Of a stretch of DNA of 64,000 nt, positions 40,551 to 55,927 are shown piece after piece (within the stretch, counting starts at the first letter, position 1; every line of letters starts with the position of its first letter). The translations under genes and the position numbers were made by a program. Origin of the DNA: an uncultured Alphaproteobacteria bacterium. Lineage in GTDB: Bacteria; Pseudomonadota; Alphaproteobacteria; Rhizobiales; Aestuariivirgaceae. The stretch is taken from NCBI GenBank assembly GCA_937872985.1, contig CALMUW010000043.1, positions 1,945 through 65,944 of the forward strand. The letters run 5' to 3'. A model generated the notes under the pieces. It was given only the letters and a program-made list of their open reading frames with translations, was not told where the DNA came from and did not search any database.

Positions 40551-40595
40551 TGGCGTCCCGGAAGGGATTCGAACCCCTGACCCCAGGTTTAGGAA
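40551..40595 (-). pseudogene. 3' portion (positions 32-76) of the disrupted host tRNA-Arg(CCT) gene
   Basis: The reverse complement reads TTCCTAA-ACCTG-GGGTC-AGGGGTTCGAATCCCTT-CCGGGAC-G-CCA. There is no 5' half next to it. Confidence 0.9.
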
Positions 40596-40738
40596 TAAGG
40601 TCATAGTACGTCGATCCAGTGCCGGTCCGTGCGAATTGTTGGTTCGCAAACAGCACCTTACACGACATCATCGCTAATCGAAAGCCGATCCTGAGCGATC
40701 TGTTTTCGGTGTCTGACACAGTGTTCGGAGCGAGAAAA

Positions 40739-41908
40739 ATGGCTGTTGTGAATTTGACCGAGGCGCGCATCCGCGACCTCGAATATGGGTCCGGCATCTG
40801 GCGGGACGAACAGGTCAAGGGCCTGATGGTGATCTGCCATGCCACGACAAAGTCCTATGCCGTCCAGGGCGACGTGCGGCGGAACGGGCGGCATGTCCGC
40901 ACGGTCCGGGTGAAGATCGACCGGGTGGACCGGATGGGCCTGAGGGAGGCGCGGCGCAAAGCCAAGGAGCTGATGAGCACCATCCAGTCCGGTGTCGATC
41001 CCACGGCCCGTCCGCAGGAGAGCGGCATCACGCTCTCGCAGGCATTGGAAAAACACCTGGGCGAGAAGCCGTTCCGGGAAGCCACCGAGATCAGCTACCG
41101 CTACAACGTCGATCACTATCTTGTAAGGTGGAAGAACAAGGCAATTGCCGATCTTACACGGACGGACGTGCGGGACTTCTATGACACGCTCCGCTCAAAG
41201 AGCGGGCAGACGACGGCGACCTGTGTGCTGCGCACCCTTCGCGCCGTCATCAATACCGCCATGCGGCTCGACGAGACGCTCGTCTCGAACCCTGTCACCG
41301 CGATCCGCATTCCCAATCCGCCGAACCGGCAGGTGGGCGCCATCGACCTTGCAGCGTGGTGGGCCGAGACTGAAACGCTGAGCCCCATTCGCCGCGACCT
41401 GCACCGGGCCTTCCTGCTGACGGGTGCACGCCGGACCTCGCTTCTCACCGTGCGGCGCGATGACGTGGACCTTGAACGGGGCACGATGCATTTCCGGCAC
41501 TTGAAGGTTGGCGGGCAGATGTTGTTCCCGATGGGGAAGTGGCTCACCTCCGTCATCAAGGCCCGCATGGAGGAGGATGCACCGCTCAATTCACCGTGGC
41601 TGTGGTCTTCGCCGACGAGTGCGAGCGGCCGTGTGGAAGAACCCAAGGAAGGCCGCAAGGACCTGCCCAGCCCCCATGAATACCGCCACCTCGCCCGCAC
41701 CATGTTCATTGCGGCGGGTGTTCCCTATGCCGAAAGCGCGCTGCTTCTTGGGCAGAAACTGCCCGGTGCCTCGGGCGGCTATGTTCATGCCGAACACCTG
41801 GTCGAGCACCTGAGACCGATGACGCAGGCGCTGGAAGACAAGGTGCTGGCGGGAAGGCCGAAGCTGCTGCCGGCCCCTCAGGCGGATGGGCTCGACCATG
41901 CCGCGTAA
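40739..41908 (+). CDS. int: Tyrosine-type site-specific integrase (P4-like, N-terminal Arm/DUF4102-type domain)
   Basis: Trimmed to the ATG at 40739 (MAVVNLTEARIRDL...). The C-terminal catalytic region shows ARRTSLL, HEYRHLARTM and a late Y in GGYVH. 144 nt from the att core. Confidence 0.85.
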   Translation: MAVVNLTEARIRDLEYGSGIWRDEQVKGLMVICHATTKSYAVQGDVRRNGRHVRTVRVKIDRVDRMGLREARRKAKELMSTIQSGVDPTARPQESGITLSQALEKHLGEKPFREATEISYRYNVDHYLVRWKNKAIADLTRTDVRDFYDTLRSKSGQTTATCVLRTLRAVINTAMRLDETLVSNPVTAIRIPNPPNRQVGAIDLAAWWAETETLSPIRRDLHRAFLLTGARRTSLLTVRRDDVDLERGTMHFRHLKVGGQMLFPMGKWLTSVIKARMEEDAPLNSPWLWSSPTSASGRVEEPKEGRKDLPSPHEYRHLARTMFIAAGVPYAESALLLGQKLPGASGGYVHAEHLVEHLRPMTQALEDKVLAGRPKLLPAPQADGLDHAA

Positions 41909-42212
41909 GACCCGGACGCCGGATGACGAATTGCCGCCGGCACCGAACCAGAAGGAAAGGCCCGCAAAGCGACAAGGCCGCATCACCCTGGAAGATGTCG
42001 AGAGGACCGTGAAGTGGCTATTCGACATGCACCGCACCACCCCCTGGTTCGACACCGAAGCCGCTGCCGCCTATCTCAGGCGGGAGCCGGGAACGCTCAA
42101 AGGCTGGCGATCCAAGGGCGAAGGCCCGAAGTTCTACACCGTGAACGACAAGTTCATCCGCTATCACCTGGATGACCTTGACGCCTATGTGCGGGGAAAG
42201 GCGCGCCAGTAA
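41886..42212 (+). CDS. AlpA/Xis-like helix-turn-helix DNA-binding protein (paralog 1)
   Basis: PWFDTEAAAAYLRREPGTLKGWRSKGEGPKFYTVNDKFIRYHLDDLDAYV matches the HTH_17/excisionase pattern. An alternative start lies at 41898. Confidence 0.7.
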   Translation: MGSTMPRKTRTPDDELPPAPNQKERPAKRQGRITLEDVERTVKWLFDMHRTTPWFDTEAAAAYLRREPGTLKGWRSKGEGPKFYTVNDKFIRYHLDDLDAYVRGKARQ

Positions 42213-42426
42213 CTCCCGGTTGCGTCATTCAGCCACGCCCACGCAAACCCGAGAAACGTTGATGCCCATGAACCGGAAAAGGTGATCATTAGACGACGCG
42301 CGAGATTTCGAGGAAGCCCGAAAGGCATCTCGCGTGACCGGTGAAGCCGGTCTCCTCAGACAGAAAACCAGACGTCTGAACCTTGCCCTTCGGCTGAACC
42401 CGAATGGCAAAACGGAGACCCATACG

Positions 42427-42669
42427 ATGACATCATCCCTGACACGGCAGGATGTCGAAGACGCCCTGAAGCGCGTTCTCGACAGCCACAACCGCAGTCC
42501 CTGGCTCGATACCGAAGGGGCCGCCGTCTATATCGGCTCGACCCCCGGCACGATGCGCACCTGGCGTGCCGCAGGCGGAGGCCCGCGCTACCACGCCATT
42601 CACGGCAAGTCGGTGCGCTACCATGTGACCGATCTCGACGCCTTCATTCGCGGGGAGGTGGCACGATGA
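42427..42669 (+). CDS. AlpA/Xis-like helix-turn-helix DNA-binding protein (paralog 2)
   Basis: PWLDTEGAAVYIGSTPGTMRTWRAAGGGPRYHAIHGKSVRYHVTDLDAFI aligns position for position with paralog 1. ATG at 42427 (the tracked GTG at 42334 is also possible). ATGA overlap with the next gene. Confidence 0.7.
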   Translation: MTSSLTRQDVEDALKRVLDSHNRSPWLDTEGAAVYIGSTPGTMRTWRAAGGGPRYHAIHGKSVRYHVTDLDAFIRGEVAR

Positions 42670-44918
42670 CCAGTCCCACATATGAGAACGGACGCGCCCT
42701 GGAGTGTGGCGCGTCCGCAAGTGCCGAGGAGATGGCTGTCGTGTCCGACGCTTCCGAGAATGCCGGAACGGCTTCAGCCGAAGTGCCAGCATCTCACGAT
42801 CCGAAGGCGCTATCTGCCCACCTGAAGGCCGGTCATGACCTGATCCCGGTTGACGGCAAGGTTCCCGCAGAGAAGGGATGGCGGCGCTCGCCGTCTCTCT
42901 TGGCCGCCGACGCAAAGGCCCGGATGCGCAAGGGCGGCAACATCGGCGTTCGCCTGCGCGACACGGACCTGGTCATCGATATCGATCCCCGTCACTTCCG
43001 CGAAAATGACGATCCGCTTGGCCGACTCAAGGCGGATTTCGGTCTGCCTGATGCCCCTTTTGTCAGGACGGGCGGCGGTGGCCTGCACCTCTATCTGCGC
43101 AAGCCGACCCACATCCGGGTCGTCAACGGACTGCCTGACTATCCCGGCATTGAGTTCAAGTCGCATGGCCGTCAGGTCGTGGCGGCAGGCTCGATCCATC
43201 CTGACACGGCGAAGCCCTACAGCCTCGATGACGATCCGCTTGCTCTGACGCTGTCGGAAGCGCCCGAAGCGTCCACGGCACTCCTGAAGGCCATAGAGAA
43301 GCCGTCTGCGGCGTCATCGGACAGCAGTTACGGCGAACTCGATCCCGAACGCCTGGCGGAATGGCTGGGCTGGATTGACGTGTCAGATTATCGCGACGAG
43401 ACGAAGTGGCGGGAGCTGATGATGTCCTGCCACCAGGCAACAGGCGGAAGCGGCATTGACGAGTTCGCCGCCTGGTCAACATCCGATCCTGATTATTCTG
43501 CTCATGGCGGCAAGATCAGGCAGCGTTGGAACTCGCTCGACAACAAGCCAGGTGCGATCACCGTCCGTACCTTGATTGCGGCCTTGCCTGTCGCGCGGCG
43601 GCGCGAGGCGATCGAGTCTCTTGGCCGTGTTGCCGCGGCAGATGACTTCCCCGACAATGCCGAAGCGGGGCCTGCAACGGCACCACTGGCGGATGTCTGG
43701 GACGGCTGGGTCTTTGTTGCCGAAGCCATGCAGTTCATCCGGCGCGCGGATGGCCGGAAGTACCGCACTGATCAGTGGAAGGCGCTCCATGGCGGCCTCT
43801 ATCCCGATGGCGAGATTCTCAATGCCGTCTGGAAGTCCCGCATTCCCGTCAGGAAGTTCGAGAGGCTGGTTTATCTGCCGGAAGCACCCGAGTTCTCGGA
43901 AGGAGGCGAGAGTGGCGTCTACAACATCTGGCGCAAGTCAGGCGTCGAGGCAAAGCCCGGTGACGTGAAGCCGTTTCTGGATCACATGGCGTATCTGTTT
44001 CCCCATGAAGGGGACCGTGAACTGGTGCTCGACTATCTGGCATTGCTGACCCAGAAGCCTGCCCAGAAGATCCATTTTGCCCTTCTGGTGCGCGGATCGC
44101 AGGGAACCGGCAAGAGCTGGATCGGCAACCTGATGGAGCGGATCATCGGCAGGCCCAATGTGGTGCGGCCCTCGAATGACGAGGTCGTGTCGCGCTGGAC
44201 GCACTGGATGGAAGGCGCACAGCTGGCTATCGTCGAAGAACTGATGACGCTCGGCCGTCTTGAGGTGGCGAACCGCCTGAAGCCCGTCATCACCGACCCG
44301 ATGATCAGGATCGAGGAGAAGAACTGCTCACTCTACTCGATCCCCAATCACCTCAACTTCATCTGCTTCACCAACCACGATGACGCACTGAAGATCGAGC
44401 ATGGCGACAGGCGGTGGCTTGTCGTCTTCTCACCTGCAACCAAGCAGGAGCCTGACTACTATGACAGGCTCTTTGCCTACCTGGAGCATGGCGGTGCTGC
44501 CTTCGTGAAGCATTGGCTGATGCAGCGCCGCATCGTCCTCAATGGCCATGGCGTTGCGCCTGCGACCTCCGGCAAGGAGACAATGCGCAGGATGGCGATG
44601 GGGGATGCCGAGGCGTTCCTGCTGGACCTCCATGAGGCCAATGAGGCGCCCTTCGACTTTGACCTGGTGCGCGTCGATGATCTCGTCCAGGCGGTGCCTG
44701 CCAGGCTCTCAGGCAGGTCAAGCTTGCGCTCACGGCTTGCGAAGTTCCTGAAGGAGGAGCTGGGAGCTGTGGCGCACACCCGCTACACCAAGCAGAGTGC
44801 GAACAGGCCGTCATGGCAGCTTTGGTCACTGAGAAACCATGAGACATGGGAGAGCATCGGTGCCTCAGGCCGGATCGATGCCTATGTCGCGCACTATGCC
44901 ATCGACCTCATGCGTTGA
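42666..44918 (+). CDS. Replicase: bifunctional primase-polymerase (PrimPol) + PriCT-2-like + P-loop helicase (D5/VirE/DUF5906-type)
   Basis: 750 aa. N-terminal DLIPVDGKVPAEKGW...NIGVRLRDTDLVIDIDP (PrimPol-like), a middle DEFAAWSTSDPDY...RQRWNSL region (PriCT-like), then Walker A VRGSQGTGKSW and Walker B-like LAIVEE / RRWLVVFS. Confidence 0.8.
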   Translation: MTSPTYENGRALECGASASAEEMAVVSDASENAGTASAEVPASHDPKALSAHLKAGHDLIPVDGKVPAEKGWRRSPSLLAADAKARMRKGGNIGVRLRDTDLVIDIDPRHFRENDDPLGRLKADFGLPDAPFVRTGGGGLHLYLRKPTHIRVVNGLPDYPGIEFKSHGRQVVAAGSIHPDTAKPYSLDDDPLALTLSEAPEASTALLKAIEKPSAASSDSSYGELDPERLAEWLGWIDVSDYRDETKWRELMMSCHQATGGSGIDEFAAWSTSDPDYSAHGGKIRQRWNSLDNKPGAITVRTLIAALPVARRREAIESLGRVAAADDFPDNAEAGPATAPLADVWDGWVFVAEAMQFIRRADGRKYRTDQWKALHGGLYPDGEILNAVWKSRIPVRKFERLVYLPEAPEFSEGGESGVYNIWRKSGVEAKPGDVKPFLDHMAYLFPHEGDRELVLDYLALLTQKPAQKIHFALLVRGSQGTGKSWIGNLMERIIGRPNVVRPSNDEVVSRWTHWMEGAQLAIVEELMTLGRLEVANRLKPVITDPMIRIEEKNCSLYSIPNHLNFICFTNHDDALKIEHGDRRWLVVFSPATKQEPDYYDRLFAYLEHGGAAFVKHWLMQRRIVLNGHGVAPATSGKETMRRMAMGDAEAFLLDLHEANEAPFDFDLVRVDDLVQAVPARLSGRSSLRSRLAKFLKEELGAVAHTRYTKQSANRPSWQLWSLRNHETWESIGASGRIDAYVAHYAIDLMR

Positions 44919-44931
44919 TTGATTGCCTGAT

Positions 44932-45599: not shown

Positions 45600-46859
45600 T
45601 CAATCCTCTCGCATGTCCGATATTTCCTTTATTGAGGGCCTTGCAAACGGTGGAAGCTTATCAGCCTTATACTGAGCCATTGATGCTAACCTATTTTCTT
45701 CCGCCTTCTGTAGCATAGCTCGAGCTGAGGCCTCCTGTTCAGGCGACAGAGGCTGCGAGAGGACAGCGCCAAACTTTTCGATGAAACTGCGTTCCACACC
45801 ATCGAATGAGAAATCGTTCTCCCATCCATTCAGCAGAGAATAATCTACCAACGACTGACAGCCATGTGGCAATGCTTTTCCCTTTCGAAACTGGCTATAT
45901 AGCCAGAGAATTACATCGGTGATTTGGATTCCAGGACTCTCGGAGTCTTCAAACACCTTGAACTGACTTCCTACAACCTTCTGAAGCTTGTAGCTCTCAC
46001 CGGCCCACTTGATCTCTTCCGGCGATGCATTCGAGAACATCTCGTGCCAAGCTTTCAGTGTCTGCTCGAACTCGCTCTGTTGGTCATGTTTGATGCTAGA
46101 AATCTTGCGCTTGCGCTGGGTAGACAGCATTTCCAAGCCGTCCAGAAGATTTGCGAAGGCCACAAGGTTGGGAAAGTGCCCATGTCTTGAAGTTTGTCGG
46201 TCCGTGTAAATCTGTATTGCCTCTGGGTTTTCTCGCGCCCAATTCAAGCCCTGACCTAGGACCTCACGTGATCGCGCATCGGGAACCTGATGTAGATTGC
46301 TAAGCAATCTGTCACAAACCTCTGGCAGCATTTTCAGTGCAACATCTTCCTTCGGCTCCAAGATGCTTTTCCAGAACAATTTGGCTGTATCTATATCGAT
46401 TGTAACAGCAAGCTTGAAGACCAGCATGAGCCTTGAAGCCCGGAGATTGTAGTGGTGCCAAGCGACTGCAGCATTCTCACCAGAGTCAAAAATTGCGTCG
46501 AACATTTTCGAACACAAGAGATACTTCTTTTCTACCCGCGACATGAAAAAAGTGGCTTCAGATGCATTCAGAATTTTGAGCAGTTGAGGTGCAATAACTT
46601 CTAGTCGACCCACTCCAAGTTTTTGCCCATGCAAAGCGTTCGAGCCATGCAAGTTTGCAAGGGAAACAACATCTTCTCTGAACCGTGGATCAAAATCTCC
46701 TTTGGTTATTAGCGCTGCCGCAAAAAAGTCAGGCTGGGCCTCATCAAAAAGATTGTGACCTGTATTTCCCGTTTCATCGACATAGGCAAAGAACGGGATT
46801 TTAGACTGACCCATCAGAGTTACTTCCGTAGTTGACACGCTCGGTAAGCCGAAAGGCAA
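45600..46859 (-). CDS. DUF3800-like protein (function unknown)
   Basis: 419 aa, low-GC. N-terminal FFAYVDETGNTG and late IQITDVILW resemble the two conserved DUF3800 motifs. An alternative start is M16 at 46814. Confidence 0.6.
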   Translation of the reverse strand: MPFGLPSVSTTEVTLMGQSKIPFFAYVDETGNTGHNLFDEAQPDFFAAALITKGDFDPRFREDVVSLANLHGSNALHGQKLGVGRLEVIAPQLLKILNASEATFFMSRVEKKYLLCSKMFDAIFDSGENAAVAWHHYNLRASRLMLVFKLAVTIDIDTAKLFWKSILEPKEDVALKMLPEVCDRLLSNLHQVPDARSREVLGQGLNWARENPEAIQIYTDRQTSRHGHFPNLVAFANLLDGLEMLSTQRKRKISSIKHDQQSEFEQTLKAWHEMFSNASPEEIKWAGESYKLQKVVGSQFKVFEDSESPGIQITDVILWLYSQFRKGKALPHGCQSLVDYSLLNGWENDFSFDGVERSFIEKFGAVLSQPLSPEQEASARAMLQKAEENRLASMAQYKADKLPPFARPSIKEISDMRED

Positions 46860-46921
46860 TAATGGCCTGACTAGAATTGAATACCCGCCATAAATTTACG
46901 AATCCATATGAGAATCACCAC

Positions 46922-47416
46922 ATGACGCGTTTGACGGTTGAAGCAAGAGAGGTGCGGCGGCCTGAGCTAGATCGCAGGTGGTCGCCTGCCATCGAGGAGC
47001 AGGTGCTGGACATCGTCGCAAGAACCGGGTCGCCGAAGATGGCAGCAGAGCAGATCGGCATTTCGGTCGCCACCATCCATGACCACAGGCGGCGCGATGC
47101 CGAATTTGGTGCGAAGTATGGTGCTGCCATGGACACAGCCTTTCATCAGGTTCTGAGCAAGGCTTTCGAGCGTTCTATGGACGATGCCGAGCCTTCGGAT
47201 CGCCTTATCGAGGTGCTGCTCAAATTTCGTTGGCCCGAACGCCTCAATGCTTTCCTGGCCTTCACGGCTGACGGCGGCTCGGCTGCTTCTGCGCCTGCCG
47301 GTCTTGATCCCCGTGTCATCGCCAGAATGGCACCCGCAGACAAGGCGGCACTGATCGAACTCCTTGGACGCTATCTCACGGTAGAAGCAGATGCCGCAAT
47401 CAAGCCAATCAACTGA
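46922..47416 (+). CDS. HTH protein resembling phage terminase small subunits
   Basis: ATG at 46922 (the tracked TTG at 46877 is possible). An HTH-like IVARTGSPKMAAEQIGISVATIHDHRRRD is followed by LIEVLLKFRWPERL, a pattern seen in terS-type proteins. Weak call. Confidence 0.4.
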   Translation: MTRLTVEAREVRRPELDRRWSPAIEEQVLDIVARTGSPKMAAEQIGISVATIHDHRRRDAEFGAKYGAAMDTAFHQVLSKAFERSMDDAEPSDRLIEVLLKFRWPERLNAFLAFTADGGSAASAPAGLDPRVIARMAPADKAALIELLGRYLTVEADAAIKPIN

Positions 47417-47648
47417 GACGGTGGAGCGGATGCTGCGCGATCTCGTGGCCGTCGAAGCCTTGGCAGCATCGCTGGAGGCCACAGCGCCCATCACCATCGC
47501 AGCGGAGGGTGGTGGAAGTCATCTTGTGGCCAATTATGGCCAGCCGACAGGCGCGTGGTTCTGGATGATCAGGCCCATGCCTGAGGAACTTTGGCTGCGC
47601 ATGGCTGATGAAAATCAGGTGAAGCACAGAGCAAATCCTGGTGAGTGA
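47391..47648 (+). CDS. Hypothetical protein
   Basis: 85-aa ORF overlapping the previous gene's end. Codon usage is compatible with coding, with no recognisable motif. Confidence 0.3.
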   Translation: MPQSSQSTETVERMLRDLVAVEALAASLEATAPITIAAEGGGSHLVANYGQPTGAWFWMIRPMPEELWLRMADENQVKHRANPGE

Positions 47649-47835
47649 TCGTCAATGATTGGAAGTGCGAAACGTGGTCTAGACCCAGTAACGGAAAGTG
47701 TTGCATGCGGCACACACTCACATGGGATAGTGTCGAAAAATGGCCTCATGTGAGTGTTCCCTTTTGGACGGGAAGAAAAAATGCGTTCATTGAATCTCTC
47801 CAGTACCGACGACAGATCGATTGAGGAGATGGAAA

Positions 47836-48222: not shown

Positions 48223-48340
48223 TCGCGTCCGGTCGGCCGATGGGTCGTCCGTACCGCGATGGCGGTGACAACAAGACGGCTGAGCCCGCGCCTGTTTTCT
48301 CCCGGTTCGTCGCGTGATGCGATGACAAAGGAGATTGAGC

Positions 48341-49081
48341 ATGGCGGTCAAGAAGGTGGCCCTTGTGAACCGGTGGGTGTCCGTGACGGACGTATTCGAC
48401 CGATTGCGCCGGGCACGAGAAAATCGTGAGCAGCAGACAAAGTTGCTCGAAGGACTTGAAGGGCGAGCGAAGCAGCGCCGCGATGATGTGGAACGCTCGC
48501 TCGCCGATCTTTCCGTCAACCAGCGCAGCCAGATCGTGGCCCGCGCCGTGGGCGGCTACCGCGGTGAACTCAAGCGCCAGTCGCTCGACAGCCGCGTTGC
48601 CTATCTCAAGGCCATCGGCGCACTGCGCGAGGAAGTGAACTCAGCCCGCGCCCACTACCAGAGCCCGGTTCAGATGCTCGCACGCGAGGGCCTTGGCTCG
48701 GAGCGCCGTAGCCGTCTGCTTCACCAGATCGAAAAGTCCGGCAAGATCGAATTGGAATCGCTTGCAGCCTTTGCCGCCTCCACAGGCGACAAGGAACTCG
48801 CGGCAGCATTGCTCACCCGCAATTCCGGCCTTCCCATCAATGACCGCGCCTTTTCCTCCCAGGAACTGGCCGACGCCCTTGTCGGTGACGAATGGCGTAA
48901 GGTCACGCAGGCCATTGCCGAGGTGGACCGCCTCGCCGTTGAAGCTGTCCATGCCGACAGTGCCTTCGAGACGGGCAAGGCAAACCCCACGCGGGCAGTG
49001 GGCCTCGCGCTCATGCGGCGTGACGAGCGGGCCATCGGTGCCGATCTTTCAAACCTTGATGATGAAACACAGGAGGACTGA
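48341..49081 (+). CDS. Hypothetical protein (helical, phage-module context)
   Basis: ATG at 48341 preceded by AAGGAG at 48328-48333. 246 aa with high-GC codon bias typical of coding sequence. Confidence 0.5.
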   Translation: MAVKKVALVNRWVSVTDVFDRLRRARENREQQTKLLEGLEGRAKQRRDDVERSLADLSVNQRSQIVARAVGGYRGELKRQSLDSRVAYLKAIGALREEVNSARAHYQSPVQMLAREGLGSERRSRLLHQIEKSGKIELESLAAFAASTGDKELAAALLTRNSGLPINDRAFSSQELADALVGDEWRKVTQAIAEVDRLAVEAVHADSAFETGKANPTRAVGLALMRRDERAIGADLSNLDDETQED

Positions 49082-49083
49082 CC

Positions 49084-49350
49084 ATGCCGACTTATGCCTT
49101 TTTCCCCGCTCGTGAAGAACAGCGTCGCAGCGACCAGTTGAACTTTGCCGTCGCAGTTGGTGCGAGCGCATCCGCCGCCCGATCCGTTGCCGAAACGCTG
49201 CTCGGTGAGCCGAATGCGCTTGTCGGCTGGTCGTCTGTCGATCTCACGTCCGCGCCTGCCGCCTTTGTTCCCGGCCTTCCCATCGGTGCAAGGGTGCAAT
49301 CAACTTGGCCGAACCTCGACCGGGGCGGTTCCTATCTGCGGGGGGCTTGA
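49084..49350 (+). CDS. Hypothetical protein
   Basis: 88-aa ORF starting 3 nt after the previous stop. Tight packing suggests a phage-type operon. Confidence 0.4.
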   Translation: MPTYAFFPAREEQRRSDQLNFAVAVGASASAARSVAETLLGEPNALVGWSSVDLTSAPAAFVPGLPIGARVQSTWPNLDRGGSYLRGA

Positions 49351-49697
49351 TGATGACCGAGGAGACATATCGCAGCTTCTTCGGCGTTCCCGGCCTCAAC
49401 CACTCGACCAAGCTCCGCCAGTTTGAAGGCTTCGTGCGGGAGCGCCTTGCCGGGTGTGCCGTCACCGATCCGATGGACGCGCATCTCGCCTTTGGCGGCA
49501 CCTTCGAGGAGTTCGACGAGCACGCCTGCCGCGCTACGACCGGCCTCTTGCTGATCTTCGGCTATGAGCCGCAGCCTGAGGGCGTCTACCTCCGCAAGGA
49601 GGCATGGCCTGAGGACAAGCGGGCAGTCGGCCGCAGATTTCACATTGAACGGCTCAAGCGGCTGAACTTCGGGCCGAAGCGCGGAAAGGTGAGGTGA
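49350..49697 (+). CDS. Hypothetical protein
   Basis: The ATG at 49350 overlaps the previous stop by 1 nt (TGATG). 115 aa. Confidence 0.4.
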   Translation: MMTEETYRSFFGVPGLNHSTKLRQFEGFVRERLAGCAVTDPMDAHLAFGGTFEEFDEHACRATTGLLLIFGYEPQPEGVYLRKEAWPEDKRAVGRRFHIERLKRLNFGPKRGKVR

Positions 49698-49700
49698 CGC

Positions 49701-50141
49701 ATGGGCGGGCTTGATGACTTCGCCAGGCGCATTAGCCGGCTGTCCGTCCAGGTCGAAGGCAACGTCGAGCAGGCGGTCAAGGACTGTGCCAAGGCGGTCA
49801 CGCGAGCCGTGATCAATGCTACGCCTGTCGATACCGGCAGAGCGCGCTCCAACTGGACAGCCGAACTCGACCAGGCATTCCGCCAACTGTTCCCAGCGCA
49901 TGTGCTGGGCGAAAAGGGCAGCACTGGCGAGGCGAACGCCGAAGCCGCAATCAGTCAGGCAAACGAGCTGATTGACCGCTTCGACATCACCGCCAATCGG
50001 GAAATCCACATTGCCAACAGCCTGCCATACATCGGGGCGCTCAATGATGGGCATTCCAAGCAGGCGCCTGCTGGTTTCGTCCAGGAAGCCGTCATGGAAG
50101 GGCTGGCAACGGTGCGGGATGCCAAAATCCTGATGGACTGA
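49701..50141 (+). CDS. HK97 gp10-family phage head-tail (neck) protein-like
   Basis: 146 aa. INATPVDTGRARSNW is the characteristic gp10-family motif. Confidence 0.6.
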   Translation: MGGLDDFARRISRLSVQVEGNVEQAVKDCAKAVTRAVINATPVDTGRARSNWTAELDQAFRQLFPAHVLGEKGSTGEANAEAAISQANELIDRFDITANREIHIANSLPYIGALNDGHSKQAPAGFVQEAVMEGLATVRDAKILMD

Positions 50142-50148
50142 GGCTTGC

Positions 50149-50367
50149 CTATTTCTTTGCCGGTGTCAGCAGTTCGGCGGGCGTTGTCTTGAGCCGGTCG
50201 GCCAGCTTGAAAATCAGCATCAGCGACGGATTGCGCTTGGCTCGTTCGATGCCGGAAATGTAGGTCCGGTCGATTTCCGTCTCCAGGGCAAACGCCTCCT
50301 GCGACAGGTCCAGTTCCTTTCGGGCCTGCTTCACATTTTCCGCCAAGACTCGCTTGTAGTCAGCCAT
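50149..50367 (-). CDS. Small XRE-family HTH regulator (controller/repressor-like)
   Basis: 72 aa. LSQEAFALETEIDRTYISGIERAKRNPSLMLIFKLADRL is a classic XRE HTH of the type also found in restriction-modification C proteins. Confidence 0.8.
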   Translation of the reverse strand: MADYKRVLAENVKQARKELDLSQEAFALETEIDRTYISGIERAKRNPSLMLIFKLADRLKTTPAELLTPAKK

Positions 50368-50642: not shown

Positions 50643-51929
50643 CTAAGATGCATCAAGTATAACCAGACTCTCTCTGAGAAACGGGCCTCCCGCATCCATT
50701 CGTTTACTCAACTCATCCCACTGTTGACAAGCGACTCGTCTTAGTCGGCGTAAGACAACTACTTCTCGAAGTGACCAACCCGATCGCCCTGCGATGTCAG
50801 CAATAATAAGATCCACCGGAATTTCCACGCCACAATAAGCGGAAGTCGAGACAACCAACCAAATGCTTGCGTCTGGTTTTGATCGCTTTCGAAGCCTGCT
50901 CAAAACCTTACTCATGTCTTCGAAGTAGGCTTGAATCATGAGCGGCAGTCGTGAATTCCATGGATTCTTGTCCACTTGAACATTCCACGCAACTGCATCT
51001 TGAAGTGCACCTATCGCCGTCAAATAGCTTTGACCAAAATCACTTTGTGAAGGAGAGGGCCAAGAGACTTGTACATGAGAACGTAAGGTCGCTAGCCTCA
51101 AGGATCTCAGCTGATCCATGTCTTTGACAAGGCCGCTCAAAAACAATTCTGGACGGTAAACATCTGTATAGTCAAAAGAGTTCAAGTATGGTGGCGACGT
51201 TACGCATAGATCAAATCTTTCCTTAGATCCAAAGGAACGAGAATCTCCACGAGCGATACTCGCCTTGATACTTTGGGGTTGATCAAGATCCAGGTCCTCT
51301 TTTACTATGTCAGCACGCGAAATTAGTGCGGATATAAGAGAGTCCCGATTGAACCTCAGTTGATCCCAGTTCTTGCGATATCGCAAACACTTGCCATCCT
51401 TCACGGCATTGGCGGAGTCCATGGCTGCGCCAATCAAGCAAAGTCGAACCATGTCGTATTCAGGCCCAACTTTCTTCGCGATGCTTTGTAGCCCTCCCTC
51501 AAATGCATTCAGGACTTTGGAGTTAAAAAGCCATTTTCCCTGTGCTTTGGCTTTGGGAGCTTTCTCTGAGAAGGTTGAGAAAGTCGCGAGATTGCTGCTA
51601 GCTCCATGTTGGATCCCGAGCAACGTAGACTTGAGCGCCTTGTCAAAAGCATTCAGCGATGCGGATTGCGATTTCGTATTTGCAACAAATTGGAGAAATG
51701 GGTTGACCTCTGTGCCTACTCCTCGCCTTCCTCCCAAGCCAGCTTCAAGTGGTGTCGTGCCACTCCCAGAAAAAGGATCAAACACCGTTGCATCAATAGG
51801 CAAATCCTCGGAAGCCATCGCATGCTTCACGATGCCTGGTGAGAAAGCTTCTTTAAAAAAGTACCATCGATGCCTTGGCAGCCGCTCAGCTTCCAAAGCA
51901 CTCACATTTGGTAAAGTTTTCGAATCCAT
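50643..51929 (-). CDS. DNA methyltransferase (SAM motif I before catalytic SPPY; N6A or N4C type)
   Basis: VFDPFSGSGTTPLEA (motif I, residues 56-70 in tracked-ORF numbering from 51950) and CVTSPPYLNSFDY (motif IV, residues 249-261). The ATG at 51929 overlaps the upstream TAA by 1 nt. The tracked start at 51950 is an alternative. Confidence 0.8.
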   Translation of the reverse strand: MDSKTLPNVSALEAERLPRHRWYFFKEAFSPGIVKHAMASEDLPIDATVFDPFSGSGTTPLEAGLGGRRGVGTEVNPFLQFVANTKSQSASLNAFDKALKSTLLGIQHGASSNLATFSTFSEKAPKAKAQGKWLFNSKVLNAFEGGLQSIAKKVGPEYDMVRLCLIGAAMDSANAVKDGKCLRYRKNWDQLRFNRDSLISALISRADIVKEDLDLDQPQSIKASIARGDSRSFGSKERFDLCVTSPPYLNSFDYTDVYRPELFLSGLVKDMDQLRSLRLATLRSHVQVSWPSPSQSDFGQSYLTAIGALQDAVAWNVQVDKNPWNSRLPLMIQAYFEDMSKVLSRLRKRSKPDASIWLVVSTSAYCGVEIPVDLIIADIAGRSGWSLREVVVLRRLRRVACQQWDELSKRMDAGGPFLRESLVILDAS

Positions 51930-52990
51930 TAGCTCACAATCGGTTCGCAAAACATTCGAACGGGAGCTTCGAAATCGTCTCTTTGTTCGTGATATTTGGG
52001 ATTATAATCAATTTCCTCGTCCCGATAATGAAGTCCGTCAGACACCGAAAGTGACGTCGCGCCTTTATGTAGTCCGCGCCTACGAGCGTCGAATACTACT
52101 AGATAGCCCCGAGAGCGAAGACCGGGGCCAGCTGTTAGATTTGCATCAAGGTATTCGGCAAGCTGCTTTGCACCGTCGCGCGCACGCGAAGCCGTGTAAG
52201 CAGTCGTAAACGTCCCATCCTCTTCACATGACTGCCCGAGCCATTTTATCTCAATCAGCGCTCTCTGATTGGTGTCGACCCAAGTTACTTTAATGTCTAC
52301 GGGATGGCTTTCATCTACAATTTGCTCTGGCCGAACCTCTGCAAAGCGGCCGATCGTGGAAGCCAAGTGCTGCAGAAGGGACCGGCGCATTGTCGCTTCA
52401 GGCTTAGTGCGCAGGAAAATGCGTCTTGGCTCTCGCCAAGCGTCTTTCAATATGTAGCAACTGGTGTACCGAGCAACTCGGTTACGATATCCTTCTAAGG
52501 CATCCGACAAGGATGAAAATGTTGGCCTCGCAAACACGCTTGCGTGGGTGGGGGCTGCTGGATTGATTACGGTGTAGCTTTCTCCACCGATGTAGAAGCG
52601 CTCGTGCCCGTTATCGTATAAATAAACGATAGCTTCGGCGGACAAGGCGACTAAGTTGTGGGCGTTTAGATCAAAAACGGAAACTTGTCCTGCACTAGAA
52701 ACTTCAACCATACACGCTGAGTCAAGCTCGTGTTGTAGCCCGGAAATATGCGCAACTTGATGCAGCGCCTGCGGCCCGCATTGGGAGGCCGGTAATAGCG
52801 ACGGCGACGGGCGAATGAATACAACTAGGGGCACGCTTCTAGTCGCGGGCTCCATTAGTCGATAAATCTGAGTTATGATCTCAACAAGCTCCCGCAAAGC
52901 CTGTGGGCCAGCTAAGCCAAAATGCTTGTTAGCTGCAGCTGAATGAAGGTTTGAAGCAATCTCTTTCATTTTCTGAATATCGAGCGTCAA
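51929..52990 (-). CDS. PD-(D/E)xK-type nuclease candidate with an uncharacterised N-terminal domain
   Basis: 353 aa. HPVD(232)IKV ... ALIE(247)IK(249)W fits a D...ExK catalytic core. The TTG start forms TTGA with the upstream stop (ATG alternative at 52969). Low GC. Confidence 0.55.
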   Translation of the reverse strand: MTLDIQKMKEIASNLHSAAANKHFGLAGPQALRELVEIITQIYRLMEPATRSVPLVVFIRPSPSLLPASQCGPQALHQVAHISGLQHELDSACMVEVSSAGQVSVFDLNAHNLVALSAEAIVYLYDNGHERFYIGGESYTVINPAAPTHASVFARPTFSSLSDALEGYRNRVARYTSCYILKDAWREPRRIFLRTKPEATMRRSLLQHLASTIGRFAEVRPEQIVDESHPVDIKVTWVDTNQRALIEIKWLGQSCEEDGTFTTAYTASRARDGAKQLAEYLDANLTAGPGLRSRGYLVVFDARRRGLHKGATSLSVSDGLHYRDEEIDYNPKYHEQRDDFEAPVRMFCEPIVS

Positions 52991-53592
52991 GATTCTGCTC
53001 CGCGATCTTGCCGAGAAACCGGCTGCTCAGCAACATAGCTAAGCCAAATCATAGCTGGAGTTAGCAAGTCTCCCTGAACGCCAACTGCTTGGGACAGAGC
53101 ATCAAACTGCTCATGAAGCAAGGCTATCGCAGGTCCATCTAAGAGGCCAGCGCCACCCTTTCGCAAAAGGGCACTATGCATAGTTGGCTCTTTATCTAAA
53201 CTTTCAATTAGGGTCGCGGCGGGAACAACAATTGTGCTGCCACAAGCCGCGTGTAGGAAGCGCTTTCTTCCTGACAGATTGGACATCTCACCTAGTGATT
53301 GGGTAAGTTCCTTTCCGCGCCTTGAAAGTTGAAAGCTACCATTCGCGTCCTCAATGAGGCTCGCCTCTGCTAGTGTATCCAAGGCGTCACTTATGCTTGA
53401 ACTAAACGGTGTACCAAATTCGGTGCGGGCAAATCTATAGCCCCAATCGGCCACTGGTTGTCCCTCATAAAGTGCCAACAAACAGGCAAGGTAGGTTGCT
53501 CGCTGGACTTCAAGGCGCGTTACACGGCCAAATGAAGGTTCCAATTCTGTGATAATGGAAAGTGTATCGAATACTGCTTCGGGGCTATGCAT
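52987..53592 (-). CDS. Small adaptor / middle-component protein, no recognisable motif
   Basis: 201 aa. The ATG at 53592 directly abuts the TAG of the ATPase gene. Predicted helical. Positioned like LmuC / ABC-3C middle components. Confidence 0.5.
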   Translation of the reverse strand: MHSPEAVFDTLSIITELEPSFGRVTRLEVQRATYLACLLALYEGQPVADWGYRFARTEFGTPFSSSISDALDTLAEASLIEDANGSFQLSRRGKELTQSLGEMSNLSGRKRFLHAACGSTIVVPAATLIESLDKEPTMHSALLRKGGAGLLDGPAIALLHEQFDALSQAVGVQGDLLTPAMIWLSYVAEQPVSRQDRGAES

Positions 53593-55587
53593 CTAATTCA
53601 CTGCCGCAGGGCCCAGGTCCAATGCTTTGGAAATGTCTTTGTAGGCGCTTTCAAACAATCTAGTAGCGCTCTGCTGGACGTCCGAAAGCTCTGCCCATCC
53701 AATCATTTGATTCAGCGTCATATGCTTTCTACCGCATCGCTTGCCTAAGGTAGTCAGCAGTTTCGAGCTATTAATATTTGCGGTCATTATGAGATCGTGT
53801 CCGCTTTGAACAAATTGAGCGAACATATCACCGGCGCGGTCTTCGTATGCAATATCCAACGATCCTTCAGGAGTATCGACAAACAAAGTAGCCGGTGAAC
53901 TCGAGACAGACATCTGTTGTGCCAAGGCCATTCGAAGCGCGATATCGACAAAGAAGCGCTGACTCTCGGACATTTGAGATTCGTCATGCCTCGCGTTTCC
54001 CCTTAATTCGACTAACAACTTCATACCCACGGGAGCGGTGAGTTTTAACTGTACATCGAGATCAATGCCTAAGAACAACTCTGCCAATTCGCGGAACCGG
54101 GGAAGAAAGCTTTCTTCAGCGCGAGCATATCGAACCTCTAGGTCCTGCTGGAGTTTTTTTAATTCAGTTCTTATTTGATCACGCTCGGCGTAGTCGGCAT
54201 CACGTTGAGCCGTGAACTCTGCCATGGCGAGTTGTAAATTTTGAATTGTCTGAGCAAGTGGGTTGCTTTGGCTTTCATGCCTCGTTTTTAATACTTGAAC
54301 AATTTCAGAATGTTCTTTTTCGAACTTTTCTAACGCCTCTCTCGCGGCCACGACTTCTACTTTAACGCCCTCCAACTCACGACGAAGCCTGTCTTGCGAA
54401 GCTATAGCGTCGTCTAATTCCAGTCGCGCTATTGATAGACGTTGATCGATATCTGCCAGCTCTGCCTTTCCAGAAGCGCTAAGGTCCCCAGTATTGTCAA
54501 TCGGCGAACCACACATCGGACATACGCCTGCATCGACCTTTTGCTGAACAAGCGCCGTAACGTGAGTTCCGGATGAGTCGCAGACTCCGCAGACACCTTC
54601 ATTGAGTGCACGAATTACTAATGAGTGGCTTCTTGCTTTAGAAGCACCGTGAAGGAAACGATTAAAGGCTTCTGTGTAAGCAGATCGCAAACTTGCGACA
54701 TTTGAGCTGCGCTGGGCAATGTGAACTTCCAGTTCGGAGAGCTGAGCTGCGATCCTAGCTGATCGTTCAGAAGTCAAAGTGATCGCTTCAGTAATACCTT
54801 CGTATTGGGCGTCTAAATCTACAGGCGAAACAACAGTCGTGTCGGCTTGTAATGATTGTTGGAGTATTTCAATTCGTCTTCGCGTCTGATTAACTTGGAA
54901 TTGCGTGTTGCGTCCTCTGGATCCCGCTTTTTCCGCCTCTCGGTTTAGAGTATCGGCTCTCACGGCATCTTCAGGATTGCCGCCGAAGCAGAGAAACAGA
55001 ACTTGCGCAGCGGCTGCATCGTCCCAAAACAATAGGTGCCGAGCTTCATCGAAAGTGAAAACGAAATGCTGAAGGAACACAAATTGTTCAAATGACTTTA
55101 AGCCAATCGCATCAGTGACGGACTGTCGATAGAGATCGGCCATCTGCAGGGGAGTTGGGGAACTGCCTTTGTTGTCAACGGAGCTTCCGTTGATAGTAAA
55201 CTTCCTGAAATCATTCGGATCAAACAACCCACGTGTAACTTCAAATCGTTTTGTGGCAATGTCAAACTCTAGGGTCACTGCAGCATCGTCACGATCACTT
55301 TCGGCAATACGACCGTTGAAATACTCTGCTGCGTAGTCGGACGATTCTTTGAGATAATTTTGGTTTGAAAGTAGTCTTCTCCTGGGATGAGGCACAGCGC
55401 CAGTCAGCCCATAGTTGACTGTAGCCAAAAACGTCGACTTCCCTATGCCATTCGCTCCGGCGAGACACGTCACTCCGTCTTTTAATTCAATGGAGATGTT
55501 CGGCTGTAATCCGTAAAGCGAAAATGCTCCAAAACTAATTCTTCTAAGCTTTGGAAAGGCATATCGCCTGAGGTTTTCTTTTTGCAT
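53593..55587 (-). CDS. SMC/Rad50-like ABC ATPase with a coiled-coil insert and a Cys4 knuckle
   Basis: 664 aa. Walker A GANGIGKST (44-52), a long heptad-rich insert (~210-530), CGVC (333-336) and CPMC (356-359), signature-like SESQR (540-544), and Walker B ATLFVDTPEGSLD (566-578). Confidence 0.8.
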   Translation of the reverse strand: MQKENLRRYAFPKLRRISFGAFSLYGLQPNISIELKDGVTCLAGANGIGKSTFLATVNYGLTGAVPHPRRRLLSNQNYLKESSDYAAEYFNGRIAESDRDDAAVTLEFDIATKRFEVTRGLFDPNDFRKFTINGSSVDNKGSSPTPLQMADLYRQSVTDAIGLKSFEQFVFLQHFVFTFDEARHLLFWDDAAAAQVLFLCFGGNPEDAVRADTLNREAEKAGSRGRNTQFQVNQTRRRIEILQQSLQADTTVVSPVDLDAQYEGITEAITLTSERSARIAAQLSELEVHIAQRSSNVASLRSAYTEAFNRFLHGASKARSHSLVIRALNEGVCGVCDSSGTHVTALVQQKVDAGVCPMCGSPIDNTGDLSASGKAELADIDQRLSIARLELDDAIASQDRLRRELEGVKVEVVAAREALEKFEKEHSEIVQVLKTRHESQSNPLAQTIQNLQLAMAEFTAQRDADYAERDQIRTELKKLQQDLEVRYARAEESFLPRFRELAELFLGIDLDVQLKLTAPVGMKLLVELRGNARHDESQMSESQRFFVDIALRMALAQQMSVSSSPATLFVDTPEGSLDIAYEDRAGDMFAQFVQSGHDLIMTANINSSKLLTTLGKRCGRKHMTLNQMIGWAELSDVQQSATRLFESAYKDISKALDLGPAAVN

Positions 55588-55682
55588 TGTTGCTTTCCGT
55601 CGACCGCGGCCTGCAACATGCTATTCTAACGGTAAAGTGTTTTCTACCAGTACGTTAGATAAATGAGAGATAGTGAGGTGTC

Positions 55683-55759
55683 TGGCCTCCCGGAAGGGAT
55701 TCGAACCCCTGACCCCAGGTTTAGGAAACCTGTGCTCTATCCTGCTGAGCTACCGGGAG
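55683..55759 (-). tRNA. tRNA-Arg (anticodon CCT), complete, carried by the island
   Basis: The reverse complement folds by hand as CTCCCGG-TA-GCTC-AGCAGGATA-GAGC-A-CAGGT-TTCCTAA-ACCTG-GGGTC-AGGGG-TTCGAAT-CCCTT-CCGGGAG-G-CCA. Confidence 0.9.
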
Positions 55760-55857
55760 GTAGATGCGCCACGCACGGTGTCTATACGGTACTCAGGCCA
55801 CACCGCAAAGGCCTAAGCGCTTGTTCCGAATCGCCTTCTCTCAGACAGAGCATATAA

Positions 55858-55896
55858 TTAGGAAACCTGTGCTCTATCCGGCTGAGCTACCGGGAC
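55858..55896 (-). pseudogene. 5' portion (positions 1-38) of the disrupted host tRNA-Arg(CCT) gene
   Basis: The reverse complement reads GTCCCGG-TA-GCTC-AGCCGGATA-GAGC-A-CAGGT-TTCCTAA. Its acceptor strand is complementary to the 3' fragment at 40551-40595. Confidence 0.9.
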
Positions 55897-55927
55897 GTGG
55901 GTTCAGGCTATAGCGGGGACGGTCGGC

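What the first reader, a model, noticed from the sequence alone, without database searches (positions are those of the whole stretch)
40551..55896. tRNA-Arg(CCT) gene split in its anticodon loop by a 15.3 kb element that brings a complete replacement tRNA instead of rebuilding the junction
Seen: 40551-40595 (minus) is the exact 3' 45 nt of a tRNA, from the TTCCTAA loop to CCGGGAC-G-CCA. 55858-55896 (minus) is the 5' 39 nt, from GTCCCGG to the TTCCTAA loop. Their acceptor strands are mutually complementary, so they are halves of one gene separated by ~15.26 kb. The only sequence common to both junctions is the 7-nt anticodon loop (TTAGGAA on the plus strand), which is the size of a tyrosine-recombinase overlap region. 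Sequence beyond the loop at each junction is not tRNA-like, so neither junction regenerates a gene. Instead a full 77-nt tRNA-Arg(CCT) lies 98 bp inside the right end (55683-55759). It differs from the reconstructed host gene at three positions: G1->C with the compensatory C72->G, and one D-loop base (AGCCGGATA vs AGCAGGATA). Established: elements that integrate in tRNA genes normally carry only the 3' segment, so the target is restored. Inference: here the host becomes dependent on the island-borne copy if this is its only tRNA-Arg(CCT), which would act as an addiction-like stabiliser. The C1:G72 pair is unusual for bacterial elongator tRNAs.
Basis: partly seen in the sequence, partly recalled or inferred. 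Interest (0 to 1): 0.7.

Follow-up and report, generated by a model that had tools for sequence, protein, structure and literature searches.

The report
Satellite island splits tRNA, carries replacement
A 15.3 kb phage-satellite-like island has cut the host's tRNA-Arg(CCT) gene in two at the anticodon loop and carries its own complete copy of that tRNA; this strategy is already known from mycobacteriophages as "tRNA-dependent lysogeny", and here it turns out to be the usual habit of a widespread alphaproteobacterial island family.

Summary
On the minus strand, 55896-55858 is the 5' 39 nt and 40595-40551 the 3' 45 nt of one tRNA-Arg(CCT). The in-silico join scores as a tRNA. The two junctions share only the 7-nt anticodon loop TTCCTAA. 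A complete tRNA-Arg(CCT) with C1:G72 lies 98 bp inside the island.

A syntenic relative (L081) has the intact gene at the empty carD-tRNA site, 76/77 identical to the join.

The element (about 15.27 kb) resembles a PICI/P4-type satellite. It encodes a tyrosine integrase, two AlpA-like proteins, a PrimPol-helicase, a TerS-like protein, a neck protein, a repressor-like HTH protein and defence-like cargo.

The layout is usual in the element family. In 12 further loci a host 5' half is followed by a 95-136 nt conserved arm and then a complete tRNA with the same anticodon (Arg-CCT, Thr-TGT or Leu-TAA). In 9 loci, the window included, both host halves are visible and rejoin into a valid tRNA. Two relatives rebuild the target instead, and one of these keeps a decayed tRNA-Arg(CCT).

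The mechanism matches "tRNA-dependent lysogeny" (Guerrero-Bustamante & Hatfull 2024). I therefore class it as a new member of a known kind. The "addiction" idea is weak, because precise excision would restore the host gene.

The parts
40551..40595 (-). Host tRNA-Arg(CCT) 3' half, from the anticodon loop to CCA. Its first 7 nt (40589-40595) are one copy of the common core TTCCTAA. This is the int-side junction.
   Evidence: The equivalent 3' half lies at the same offset upstream of int in all 26 genome loci.
40596..40738 (+). P arm of attP (143 bp) between the core and int. It contains a conserved block (ATTGTTGGTTCGCAAACA...CTTACACGACATCAT) and two putative arm-type repeats, CGGTGTC (40707-40713) and CAGTGTTC (40719-40726), just upstream of the int ribosome-binding site.
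   Evidence: Sequence. Conservation across 26 loci. The arm-site assignment is my inference.
40739..41908 (+). Tyrosine integrase (389 aa) with an Arm-DNA-bind_3 N-terminal domain.
   Evidence: Pfam. The exact product is found on metagenome contigs. There are 575 homologues at E<=1e-20; the 120 listed are 68-100% identical, and named ones are all Alphaproteobacteria. R231, K256, H313, R316 and Y348 are invariant.
41898..42669 (+). Two HTH_17 (AlpA/excisionase-like) genes, 41898-42212 and 42334-42669.
   Evidence: Pfam; gene calls.
42666..44918 (+). Prim-Pol / PriCT_2 / DUF5906 primase-helicase (750 aa).
   Evidence: Pfam; phrog_1156 DNA primase, E=4e-72.
45600..46859 (-). DUF3800 protein, accessory cargo.
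   Evidence: Pfam. Also present in L085.
46877..50141 (+). Conserved satellite core: a TerS-like gene (46877-47416), small ORFs, the best-conserved family gene o248 (48335-49081), o88, o130 and a tail-completion/Neck1 gp10-like gene (49701-50141).
   Evidence: PHROGs: phrog_4044 E=1e-9 and phrog_169 E=2e-32. Conservation in related loci from tblastn.
50149..50367 (-). HTH_3 (Cro/CI-type) regulator.
   Evidence: Pfam E=1e-15; PHROGs.
50643..55587 (-). Variable cargo operon: type II DNA methyltransferase, two unknown ORFs (353 and 201 aa) and an SMC-like ATPase resembling LmuB/mad3. Low G+C (0.47-0.51).
   Evidence: Pfam; PADLOC; composition. No homologue in any related locus.
55683..55759 (-). 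Island-borne complete tRNA-Arg(CCT) with C1:G72, co-oriented with the split host gene.
   Evidence: ARAGORN; Rfam 64.2 bits.
55760..55857 (-). P' arm of attP (98 nt spacer). It holds an invariant CGGA.CA block and the paired repeat GAGTACCGTATAGACACCG (55776-55794), which is the reverse complement of two CGGTRC arm-type sites.
   Evidence: Alignment of 11 spacers, 75% mean column identity; motif scan. No terminator-like site lies in it.
55858..55896 (-). Host tRNA-Arg(CCT) 5' half, ending with the second core copy TTCCTAA (55858-55864). This is the tRNA-side junction.
55907..55961 (-). Retained host upstream region: the carD terminator (55961-55937) and the conserved CCCCGCTATAGC block (55918-55907) in front of the 5' half.
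   Evidence: Terminator scan. The same sequence lies upstream of the intact tRNA in L081.

Best explanation
A roughly 15.27 kb integrative element of the phage-satellite type (PICI/P4-like) is inserted in the host's tRNA-Arg(CCT) gene between carD and hisC. Its tyrosine integrase recombined an attP whose only identity to attB is the 7-bp anticodon loop TTCCTAA, the expected overlap region. As a result neither junction regenerates a tRNA. The element carries a complete tRNA-Arg(CCT) immediately outside its P' arm, 98 nt from the core and in the same orientation as the broken gene. After integration this copy therefore sits downstream of the host tRNA's own upstream region and most likely takes over decoding. 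Shown: the anatomy, the empty site, recurrence in the family, and the match between the carried and the targeted anticodon. Inferred: strand exchange within the loop, the arm-site assignments, expression of the island tRNA (possibly by read-through from the host promoter), and functional complementation. Precise excision would rebuild the host gene.
For: The halves and their join are confirmed. The empty site in syntenic L081 carries a tRNA 76/77 identical to the join, with the same upstream sequence. The integrase is intact. The satellite gene set contains no recognisable capsid, portal, TerL, tail or lysis gene. The cargo has low G+C. In all 26 genome loci that encode a relative of the integrase, a tRNA 3' half ending in the anticodon loop lies about 145 bp upstream of int, and ARAGORN finds no full tRNA there. 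The far end is visible in 13 loci counting the window. All 13 show host 5' half, then a conserved 95-136 nt arm, then a complete tRNA of the same anticodon: 6 Arg-CCT, 5 Thr-TGT and 2 Leu-TAA. In the 9 loci with both ends, the joined host halves fold as tRNAs of that anticodon. The island tRNAs differ from the local host gene at 3-28 positions, with compensatory stem changes, so they are imported genes. A natural control is L052, a relative that rebuilds tRNA-Arg(ACG) and keeps only a decayed tRNA-Arg(CCT) where the replacement normally sits. L067 rebuilds tRNA-Lys and carries no tRNA. The two 3.7 kb remnants L009 and L032 still keep an intact island tRNA. The mechanism has been demonstrated experimentally in mycobacteriophages (PMC10865867).
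Against: No excised attP circle and no empty site from the same strain was found. Expression and charging of the C1:G72 tRNA are untested. The genome-wide number of tRNA-Arg(CCU) genes is unknown. From general knowledge, tRNA-Arg(UCU) can read AGG in some bacteria, so this particular target may be dispensable. No sigma-70-like promoter was found in the spacer or in front of the 5' half by the simple scan. Satellite status rests on gene content only.
Confidence: 0.85

Rival explanations
1. This is an ordinary tRNA-rebuilding island. The full tRNA at 55683-55759 would be the regenerated target (host 5' part plus island 3' part) and 40551-40595 its displaced 3' fragment. The extra 5' half and 98-nt spacer would be an unrelated local duplication or the scar of an earlier element.
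For: A full tRNA at one end and a 45-nt direct repeat at the other is the classical picture. Two relatives, L052 and L067, really do have that layout.
Against: The full tRNA has C1 paired with G72, while the outer 5' half has G1 and the displaced 3' half has C72. A chimera of host 5' part and island 3' part would therefore not explain the compensatory pair. The 98-nt spacer is conserved across genera and target tRNAs and carries the same repeat motif as the int-side arm, so it belongs to the element. The relative L081 has one intact G1:C72 gene directly after the same upstream sequence. The layout recurs in 12 other loci.
Confidence: 0.03
2. The arrangement is an assembly artefact, a contig mis-joined at repeated tRNA sequence in a metagenome assembly.
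For: The source is metagenomic. Logan contigs break inside the repeated tRNA segment (L002, L003 and L005).
Against: The same junctions appear in independent assemblies: ENA ERZ794919, ENA ERZ27240679 (an 86.6 kb contig that spans the whole island and both flanks) and Logan. The same architecture occurs in unrelated genomes, including megabase contigs such as L009.
Confidence: 0.01
3. The island tRNA is not a replacement. It would be carried for another reason, such as codon supply for island or helper-phage genes, or as a decoy or escape from a tRNA-targeting defence. The host would tolerate loss of tRNA-Arg(CCU) anyway.
For: Phage tRNAs are known to serve such roles (discussed in PMC10865867). 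tRNA-Arg(CCU) is dispensable in some bacteria (general knowledge). C1:G72 marks the island copy as unusual. Defence-like cargo lies next to it.
Against: The carried anticodon equals the disrupted one in 13 of 13 loci, across three anticodons and two very different integrases. The tRNA has decayed in L052 and is absent in L067, the two relatives that rebuild their target. It is retained in deletion remnants. Its fixed position and orientation behind the host 5' half fit replacement. The targets include tRNA-Thr(UGU) and tRNA-Leu(UAA), which are normally the only readers of ACA and UUA (general knowledge).
Confidence: 0.1

Closest known systems
tRNA-dependent lysogeny of actinobacteriophages: Fionnbharth (K4), Cluster L, Cain, Gaia and Gordonia phages (Guerrero-Bustamante & Hatfull, mBio 2024, PMC10865867)
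   Same: A tyrosine integrase with an arm-binding domain acts on an attB inside a tRNA gene. The common core is too short to rebuild the tRNA (8-17 bp there, 7 bp here). [quoted passage not shown] Close relatives with similar integrases rebuild the tRNA instead and lack the extra tRNA (Boilgate and Ximenita there; L052 and L067 here).
   Different: Those are complete temperate phages of Actinobacteria. This element is a roughly 15 kb satellite-like island of Alphaproteobacteria. In Fionnbharth the tRNA lies elsewhere in the genome, overlaps gene 37 on the opposite strand and has its own demonstrated promoter. Here the tRNA abuts the P' arm at a fixed 95-136 nt from the core and is always co-oriented with the broken host gene. 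The targets differ (Arg-CCT, Thr-TGT, Leu-TAA here; Lys, Ile2, Leu-CAA there). The requirement for the tRNA is shown experimentally there and only inferred here.
Lo5R7ANS-like prophages of Sinorhizobium meliloti that inactivate tRNA-Leu(UAG) and carry a substitute (Int J Mol Sci 2024, PMC11476347); prophage Lj965 of Lactobacillus johnsonii, as cited in PMC10865867
   Same: A host tRNA gene is disrupted in its central part and the element carries a tRNA with the same anticodon but a foreign sequence. The S. meliloti case is also alphaproteobacterial.
   Different: Those are full prophages seen in two strains and described only bioinformatically. No family-wide rule, att-arm anatomy or co-variation with the target was reported.
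Classical tRNA-integrating islands and phages with an anticodon-loop crossover (Williams 2002; Islander database, PMC4383910)
   Same: The crossover lies in the 7-nt anticodon loop, flanked by the symmetrical anticodon stem. A displaced 3' tRNA fragment marks one end of the island. The integrase is adjacent to attP.
   Different: Classical elements carry the 3' tRNA segment in attP and regenerate the target. This element carries only the loop plus a separate whole gene. A method that looks for a tRNA plus a displaced fragment would take the island tRNA for the regenerated target and misplace the boundary by about 137 bp (inference).
PICI / P4-like phage satellites
   Same: The gene set comprises int, AlpA-type regulators, a primase-helicase, a TerS-like protein, a head-tail connector protein, a small repressor-like HTH protein and a variable defence-cargo slot. 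The size is about 15 kb and the virion gene set is incomplete.
   Different: No helper phage is known and no capsid-remodelling genes were recognised. The host range is Alphaproteobacteria, mainly Hyphomicrobiales, also Caulobacterales, with more distant relatives labelled Sphingomonas and Azospirillum. I found no description of tRNA disruption with a carried replacement for satellites in the searched literature.

Membership tests
tRNA-dependent lysogeny (PMC10865867) | Tyrosine integrase encoded next to attP | tested here: met
   Pfam Arm-DNA-bind_3 plus Phage_integrase. The catalytic residues R, K, H, R and Y are invariant. int lies 143 bp from the core.
tRNA-dependent lysogeny (PMC10865867) | attB lies inside a host tRNA gene | tested here: met
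   The joined halves form tRNA-Arg(CCT). The intact gene is present at the empty site in L081.
tRNA-dependent lysogeny (PMC10865867) | Common core too short to rebuild the tRNA at either junction | tested here: met
   The identity is exactly the 7 bp TTCCTAA. ARAGORN and Rfam find no tRNA at either junction.
tRNA-dependent lysogeny (PMC10865867) | [quoted passage not shown] | tested here: met
   Window 55683-55759. The carried and targeted anticodons match in 13 of 13 family loci.
tRNA-dependent lysogeny (PMC10865867) | Element tRNA is required for viable integrants | not testable with these tools
   Support is indirect only: the tRNA has decayed in the rebuilding relative L052 and is retained in the deletion remnants L009 and L032.
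tRNA-dependent lysogeny (PMC10865867) | Element is a temperate phage that forms lysogens | tested here: not met
   No capsid, portal, large terminase, tail or lysis genes were recognised among the ORFs of the 15.3 kb element that were searched. It uses the same mechanism but is a satellite-like island, not a phage.
Classical tRNA-rebuilding islands (Williams 2002 / Islander) | attP carries the 3' tRNA segment, so an intact chimeric tRNA forms at a junction | tested here: not met
   Non-tRNA sequence follows the loop at 55857 and precedes it at 40596. The feature is met in the relatives L052 and L067.
Classical tRNA-rebuilding islands (Williams 2002 / Islander) | Crossover at the anticodon-loop sublocation, with a displaced 3' fragment at the far end | tested here: met
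PICI / P4-like phage satellites | int, AlpA-type regulator and primase-helicase module, plus packaging or connector genes, without a full virion gene set, at about 10-18 kb | tested here: met
   The size of 15,269 bp comes from the junction coordinates.
PICI / P4-like phage satellites | Induction and packaging depend on a helper phage | not testable with these tools
   No helper was identified. IMG/VR holds only integrated copies.

The most novel reading that the evidence does not exclude
In this satellite family the core, the P' arm and the cognate tRNA may form a portable targeting cassette. Three observations point that way. The cassette is found with integrases only 29% identical, and their arm repeats co-vary with the integrase (L069, L070). 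The family has retargeted among at least five or six anticodon loops (Arg-CCT, Thr-TGT, Arg-ACG, Leu-TAA, Lys-TTT and a possible Met-CAT). The replacement gene is placed so that it is driven by the host tRNA's own promoter. Two consequences would follow. First, when elements decay in place (L009, L032), host tRNA genes are permanently replaced by foreign versions. Second, the island tRNA offers a fresh attB for the next element, which could explain the nested arrangement in L048.
Probability: 0.3. Interest if true: 0.6.

Novelty: new member of a known kind. Interest (0 to 1): 0.45.

Why it matters
It extends tRNA-dependent integration in three ways: from actinobacteriophages to a different phylum, from phages to satellite-type islands, and from isolated cases to the usual layout of a widespread family (575 integrase homologues at E<=1e-20).

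It also offers natural controls that experiments have not provided. Relatives that rebuild their target have either lost the tRNA or let it decay.

There are practical consequences. Island-mapping methods that pair a tRNA with its displaced fragment may misplace these islands' boundaries and mistake a foreign tRNA for the host gene. tRNA phylogenies and tRNA gene counts in Hyphomicrobiales may contain satellite-borne replacements. The int-attP-tRNA module could serve as a compact integration vector for Alphaproteobacteria, as Hatfull's group proposed for mycobacteria.

Tried and rejected
1. The ORF-list start of int (GTG 40619) gave no exact-product match. ATG 40739 did.

2. Exact-product look-ups of Int, CarD and HisC returned only the same island-bearing strain, so they gave no empty site. 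The empty site came from an 81%-identical HisC homologue. The Aestuariivirga litoralis locus (L082) is not syntenic and has no tRNA there.

3. IMG/VR searches were unproductive. The o248 query gave one integrated locus. The P' arm motif gave a chance hit in an unrelated contig. Integrase relatives gave three integrated copies. No excised attP form was found.

4. Most of the 26 genome loci end before the far junction, because the 10 kb flank is shorter than the 14-16 kb elements. The far-end census therefore rests on metagenome loci centred on the mid-element gene o248.

6. The simple promoter scan found nothing in the spacer or upstream of the 5' half. The read-through idea therefore rests only on orientation, spacing and the absence of a terminator.

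7. I considered and rejected the standard-island-plus-scar model, an assembly artefact and an ancient host rearrangement (see the rival explanations).

8. I reject the strict 'addiction module' reading, because both host halves are intact and precise excision would restore the gene.
Full report
**1. The observation**

ARAGORN finds a single tRNA in the window, tRNA-Arg(CCT) at 55683-55759 on the minus strand. Rfam scores it 64.2 bits.

- On the minus strand, 55896-55858 reads GTCCCGGTAGCTCAGCCGGATAGAGCACAGGTTTCCTAA and is followed by non-tRNA sequence (ttatatgctctg...).
- 40595-40551 reads TTCCTAAACCTGGGGTCAGGGGTTCGAATCCCTTCCGGGACGCCA and is preceded by non-tRNA sequence (...gaccttA).
- Both pieces match the island tRNA far beyond chance, with E=1e-13 and E=9e-18.
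- Joined through the shared loop, they give a 77-nt sequence that ARAGORN calls tRNA-Arg(CCT), with G1:C72.
- The join differs from the island copy at nt 1, nt 17 and the partner of nt 1.
- The two junctions share exactly TTCCTAA. The bases on each side of it differ.

**2. The element**

The 15,269 bp between the junctions encode the following:

- a tyrosine integrase, 40739-41908, whose true start is ATG 40739;
- two HTH_17/AlpA-like proteins;
- a PrimPol-PriCT2-DUF5906 primase-helicase;
- a DUF3800 protein;
- a TerS-like protein (phrog_4044);
- several small conserved ORFs;
- a tail-completion/Neck1 protein (phrog_169, E=2e-32);
- an HTH_3 regulator;
- a low-G+C cargo operon made of a type II methyltransferase, two unknown ORFs and an LmuB/mad3-like SMC ATPase (composition).

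No capsid, portal, large terminase, tail or lysis gene was recognised. The gene content is that of a PICI/P4-type phage satellite. Helper dependence is untested.

The integrase keeps R231, K256, H313, R316 and Y348.

**3. The empty site**

Exact-product look-ups returned only the same island-bearing strain from several metagenomes.

A relative with 81% HisC identity and the same gene neighbourhood (L081) has, right after carD and its terminator, one intact tRNA-Arg(CCT) with G1:C72.

- It is 76/77 identical to the window's in-silico join. Only D-loop nt 17 differs.
- It has the same upstream CCCCGCTATAGC block.

So the two halves are the ancestral gene and the 15.3 kb is an insertion. The names attached to HisC homologues place the host near Aestuariivirga in the Hyphomicrobiales.

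**4. The family**

The integrase has 575 homologues at E<=1e-20. The 120 best listed are 68-100% identical, and those with names are all from Alphaproteobacteria.

*The int-side junction.* In all 26 species-representative genome loci that encode a relative of the integrase, a tRNA 3' half ending exactly in the anticodon loop lies about 145 bp upstream of int. No full tRNA is present there. The targets are Arg-CCT, Thr-TGT, Arg-ACG and one probable Met-CAT.

*The far junction.* Loci centred on the conserved mid-element gene o248 reach the other end. Thirteen loci, counting the window, show the same order:

1. a host 5' half ending in the loop;
2. a conserved 95-101 nt spacer (136 nt for Leu);
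3. a complete tRNA of the same anticodon, co-oriented with the 5' half.

These are the window, L032, L036, L046, L049 and L079 for Arg-CCT; L009, L040, L063, L065 and L066 for Thr-TGT; and L069 and L070 for Leu-TAA.

- In the 9 loci with both ends, the joined host halves are valid tRNAs of that anticodon.
- The island tRNAs differ from the local host gene at 3-28 positions, with compensatory stem changes. They are imported genes, not local duplicates.
- The island tRNA of L079 shares the C1:G72 pair with the window's.

**5. Anatomy of attP**

The spacer is conserved across genera and targets. It carries GAGTACCGnATAGGCACCG, which is the reverse complement of two CGGTRC repeats.

The int-side arm carries two CGGTGCTC-type repeats just upstream of int. 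I read these as arm-type sites for the integrase's N-terminal domain. The spacer would then be the P' arm, with the tRNA lying just outside it.

In L069 and L070 the integrase is only 29% identical. There both arms carry CGGGCC repeats instead, yet the layout is the same. The arm-site assignment is an inference.

No terminator-like site lies between the host upstream region and the island tRNA. Together with the invariant orientation, this suggests that the replacement may be transcribed from the host tRNA's own promoter. That too is an inference.

**6. Natural controls**

- **L052** has an integrase 69% identical to the window's. It carries the 3' half of tRNA-Arg(ACG) between the core and the arm repeats, so a full tRNA is directly followed by the arm, which is the classical rebuilding layout. 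At the position where the replacement tRNA normally sits, only a decayed tRNA-Arg(CCT) remains: nt 22-75, with 5 mismatches and 2 indels.
- **L067** has an integrase 62-65% identical to the window's and targets tRNA-Lys-TTT. It also rebuilds its target, and it carries no tRNA.
- **L009 and L032** are 3.7 kb deletion remnants that still keep an intact island tRNA.

Together these argue that the carried tRNA is maintained by selection exactly when the host copy is broken.

**7. Comparison with what is known**

This is the mechanism published as tRNA-dependent lysogeny (PMC10865867). Its features are a tyrosine integrase, an attB in a tRNA gene, an 8-17 bp core, no rebuilding of the tRNA, and a phage-borne cognate tRNA that is required for viable lysogens. 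Closely related phages rebuild the tRNA instead.

That paper cites prophage Lj965 as an earlier candidate. A 2024 S. meliloti survey reports two prophages that inactivate tRNA-Leu(UAG) and carry a substitute (PMC11476347).

Four of the six defining features are met here. The requirement for the tRNA cannot be tested with these tools. The feature 'temperate phage' is not met, because the element is satellite-like.

Three things differ from the published cases:

- the element type and the host phylum;
- the fixed position of the tRNA against the P' arm, whereas in Fionnbharth it lies elsewhere and has its own promoter;
- the fact that this is the predominant layout in a large family with several targets.

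I found no description of this satellite family in the searched literature.

**8. Verdict**

The 'addiction' inference is weak, because recombination at the two intact cores would restore the host gene. Dependence exists only while the element is integrated or after it has decayed in place. For tRNA-Arg(CCU) specifically, essentiality is uncertain.

Novelty: a new member of a known kind. Interest is moderate, at 0.45. The case is clean and informative at family scale, but it is no longer conceptually surprising.

Noticed in passing
window 50643-55587 (-): A four-gene low-G+C operon lies next to the island tRNA: an SMC-like ATPase with LmuB/mad3 PADLOC hits, two unknown ORFs (201 and 353 aa) and a type II DNA methyltransferase. 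It is a candidate anti-phage system in the satellite's variable cargo slot. The same slot holds a type I R-M system in L048.
   Followed up: partly
L052 14588-14640 (-): A decayed tRNA-Arg(CCT) pseudogene (only nt 22-75 recognisable) sits where the replacement tRNA normally lies, in a relative that now targets and rebuilds tRNA-Arg(ACG). This looks like a record of target switching followed by loss of selection on the old tRNA.
   Followed up: yes
L048 18975-19220 (same arrangement in L047 and L057): The far side of the cargo shows only a tRNA-Thr 3' fragment (nt ~27-76) with no P' arm. About 125 bp further on, a complete tRNA-Thr(TGT) lies on the opposite strand, followed by low-G+C small ORFs. 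A second element may be nested in the satellite's own replacement tRNA. This is unresolved because the locus ends.
   Followed up: partly
L069 12775-13000 and L070 2320-2580, 16741-16970: An integrase only 29% identical to the window's is combined with the same core / P' arm / cognate tRNA layout, on tRNA-Leu(TAA). The arm repeats are CGGGCC instead of CGGTGC, yet the CGGATCATGCGC block is retained in the spacer. The function of that block is unknown.
   Followed up: partly
L009 9814-13610 and L032 9814-13534: These roughly 3.7 kb deletion remnants of the satellite (the integrase is truncated in L032) still keep an intact island tRNA between the split host halves. The host tRNA gene has in effect been permanently replaced by a foreign one, differing at 5 positions in L009 and 17 in L032.
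   Followed up: partly
window 55992-56906 (-): CarD carries a ~120-residue N-terminal Ala/Lys/Pro-rich extension resembling histone H1, ahead of the CarD_TRCF_RID and CarD_C domains.
   Followed up: no
window 40739-41908 (+), residue ~339: The integrase clade has Gln (LLLGQ[KR]LPGASGGY) at the position of the second catalytic His/Trp, nine residues before the tyrosine nucleophile. The distant L070 integrase keeps His there.
   Followed up: no
L036 (16,312 bp contig); contig lengths: Many contigs that carry integrase homologues are 14-16 kb long. L036 is the element plus only about 75 bp of flank on each side. This suggests assembly-graph breaks at the junctions, possibly from mixed occupied and empty alleles in those samples.
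   Followed up: no
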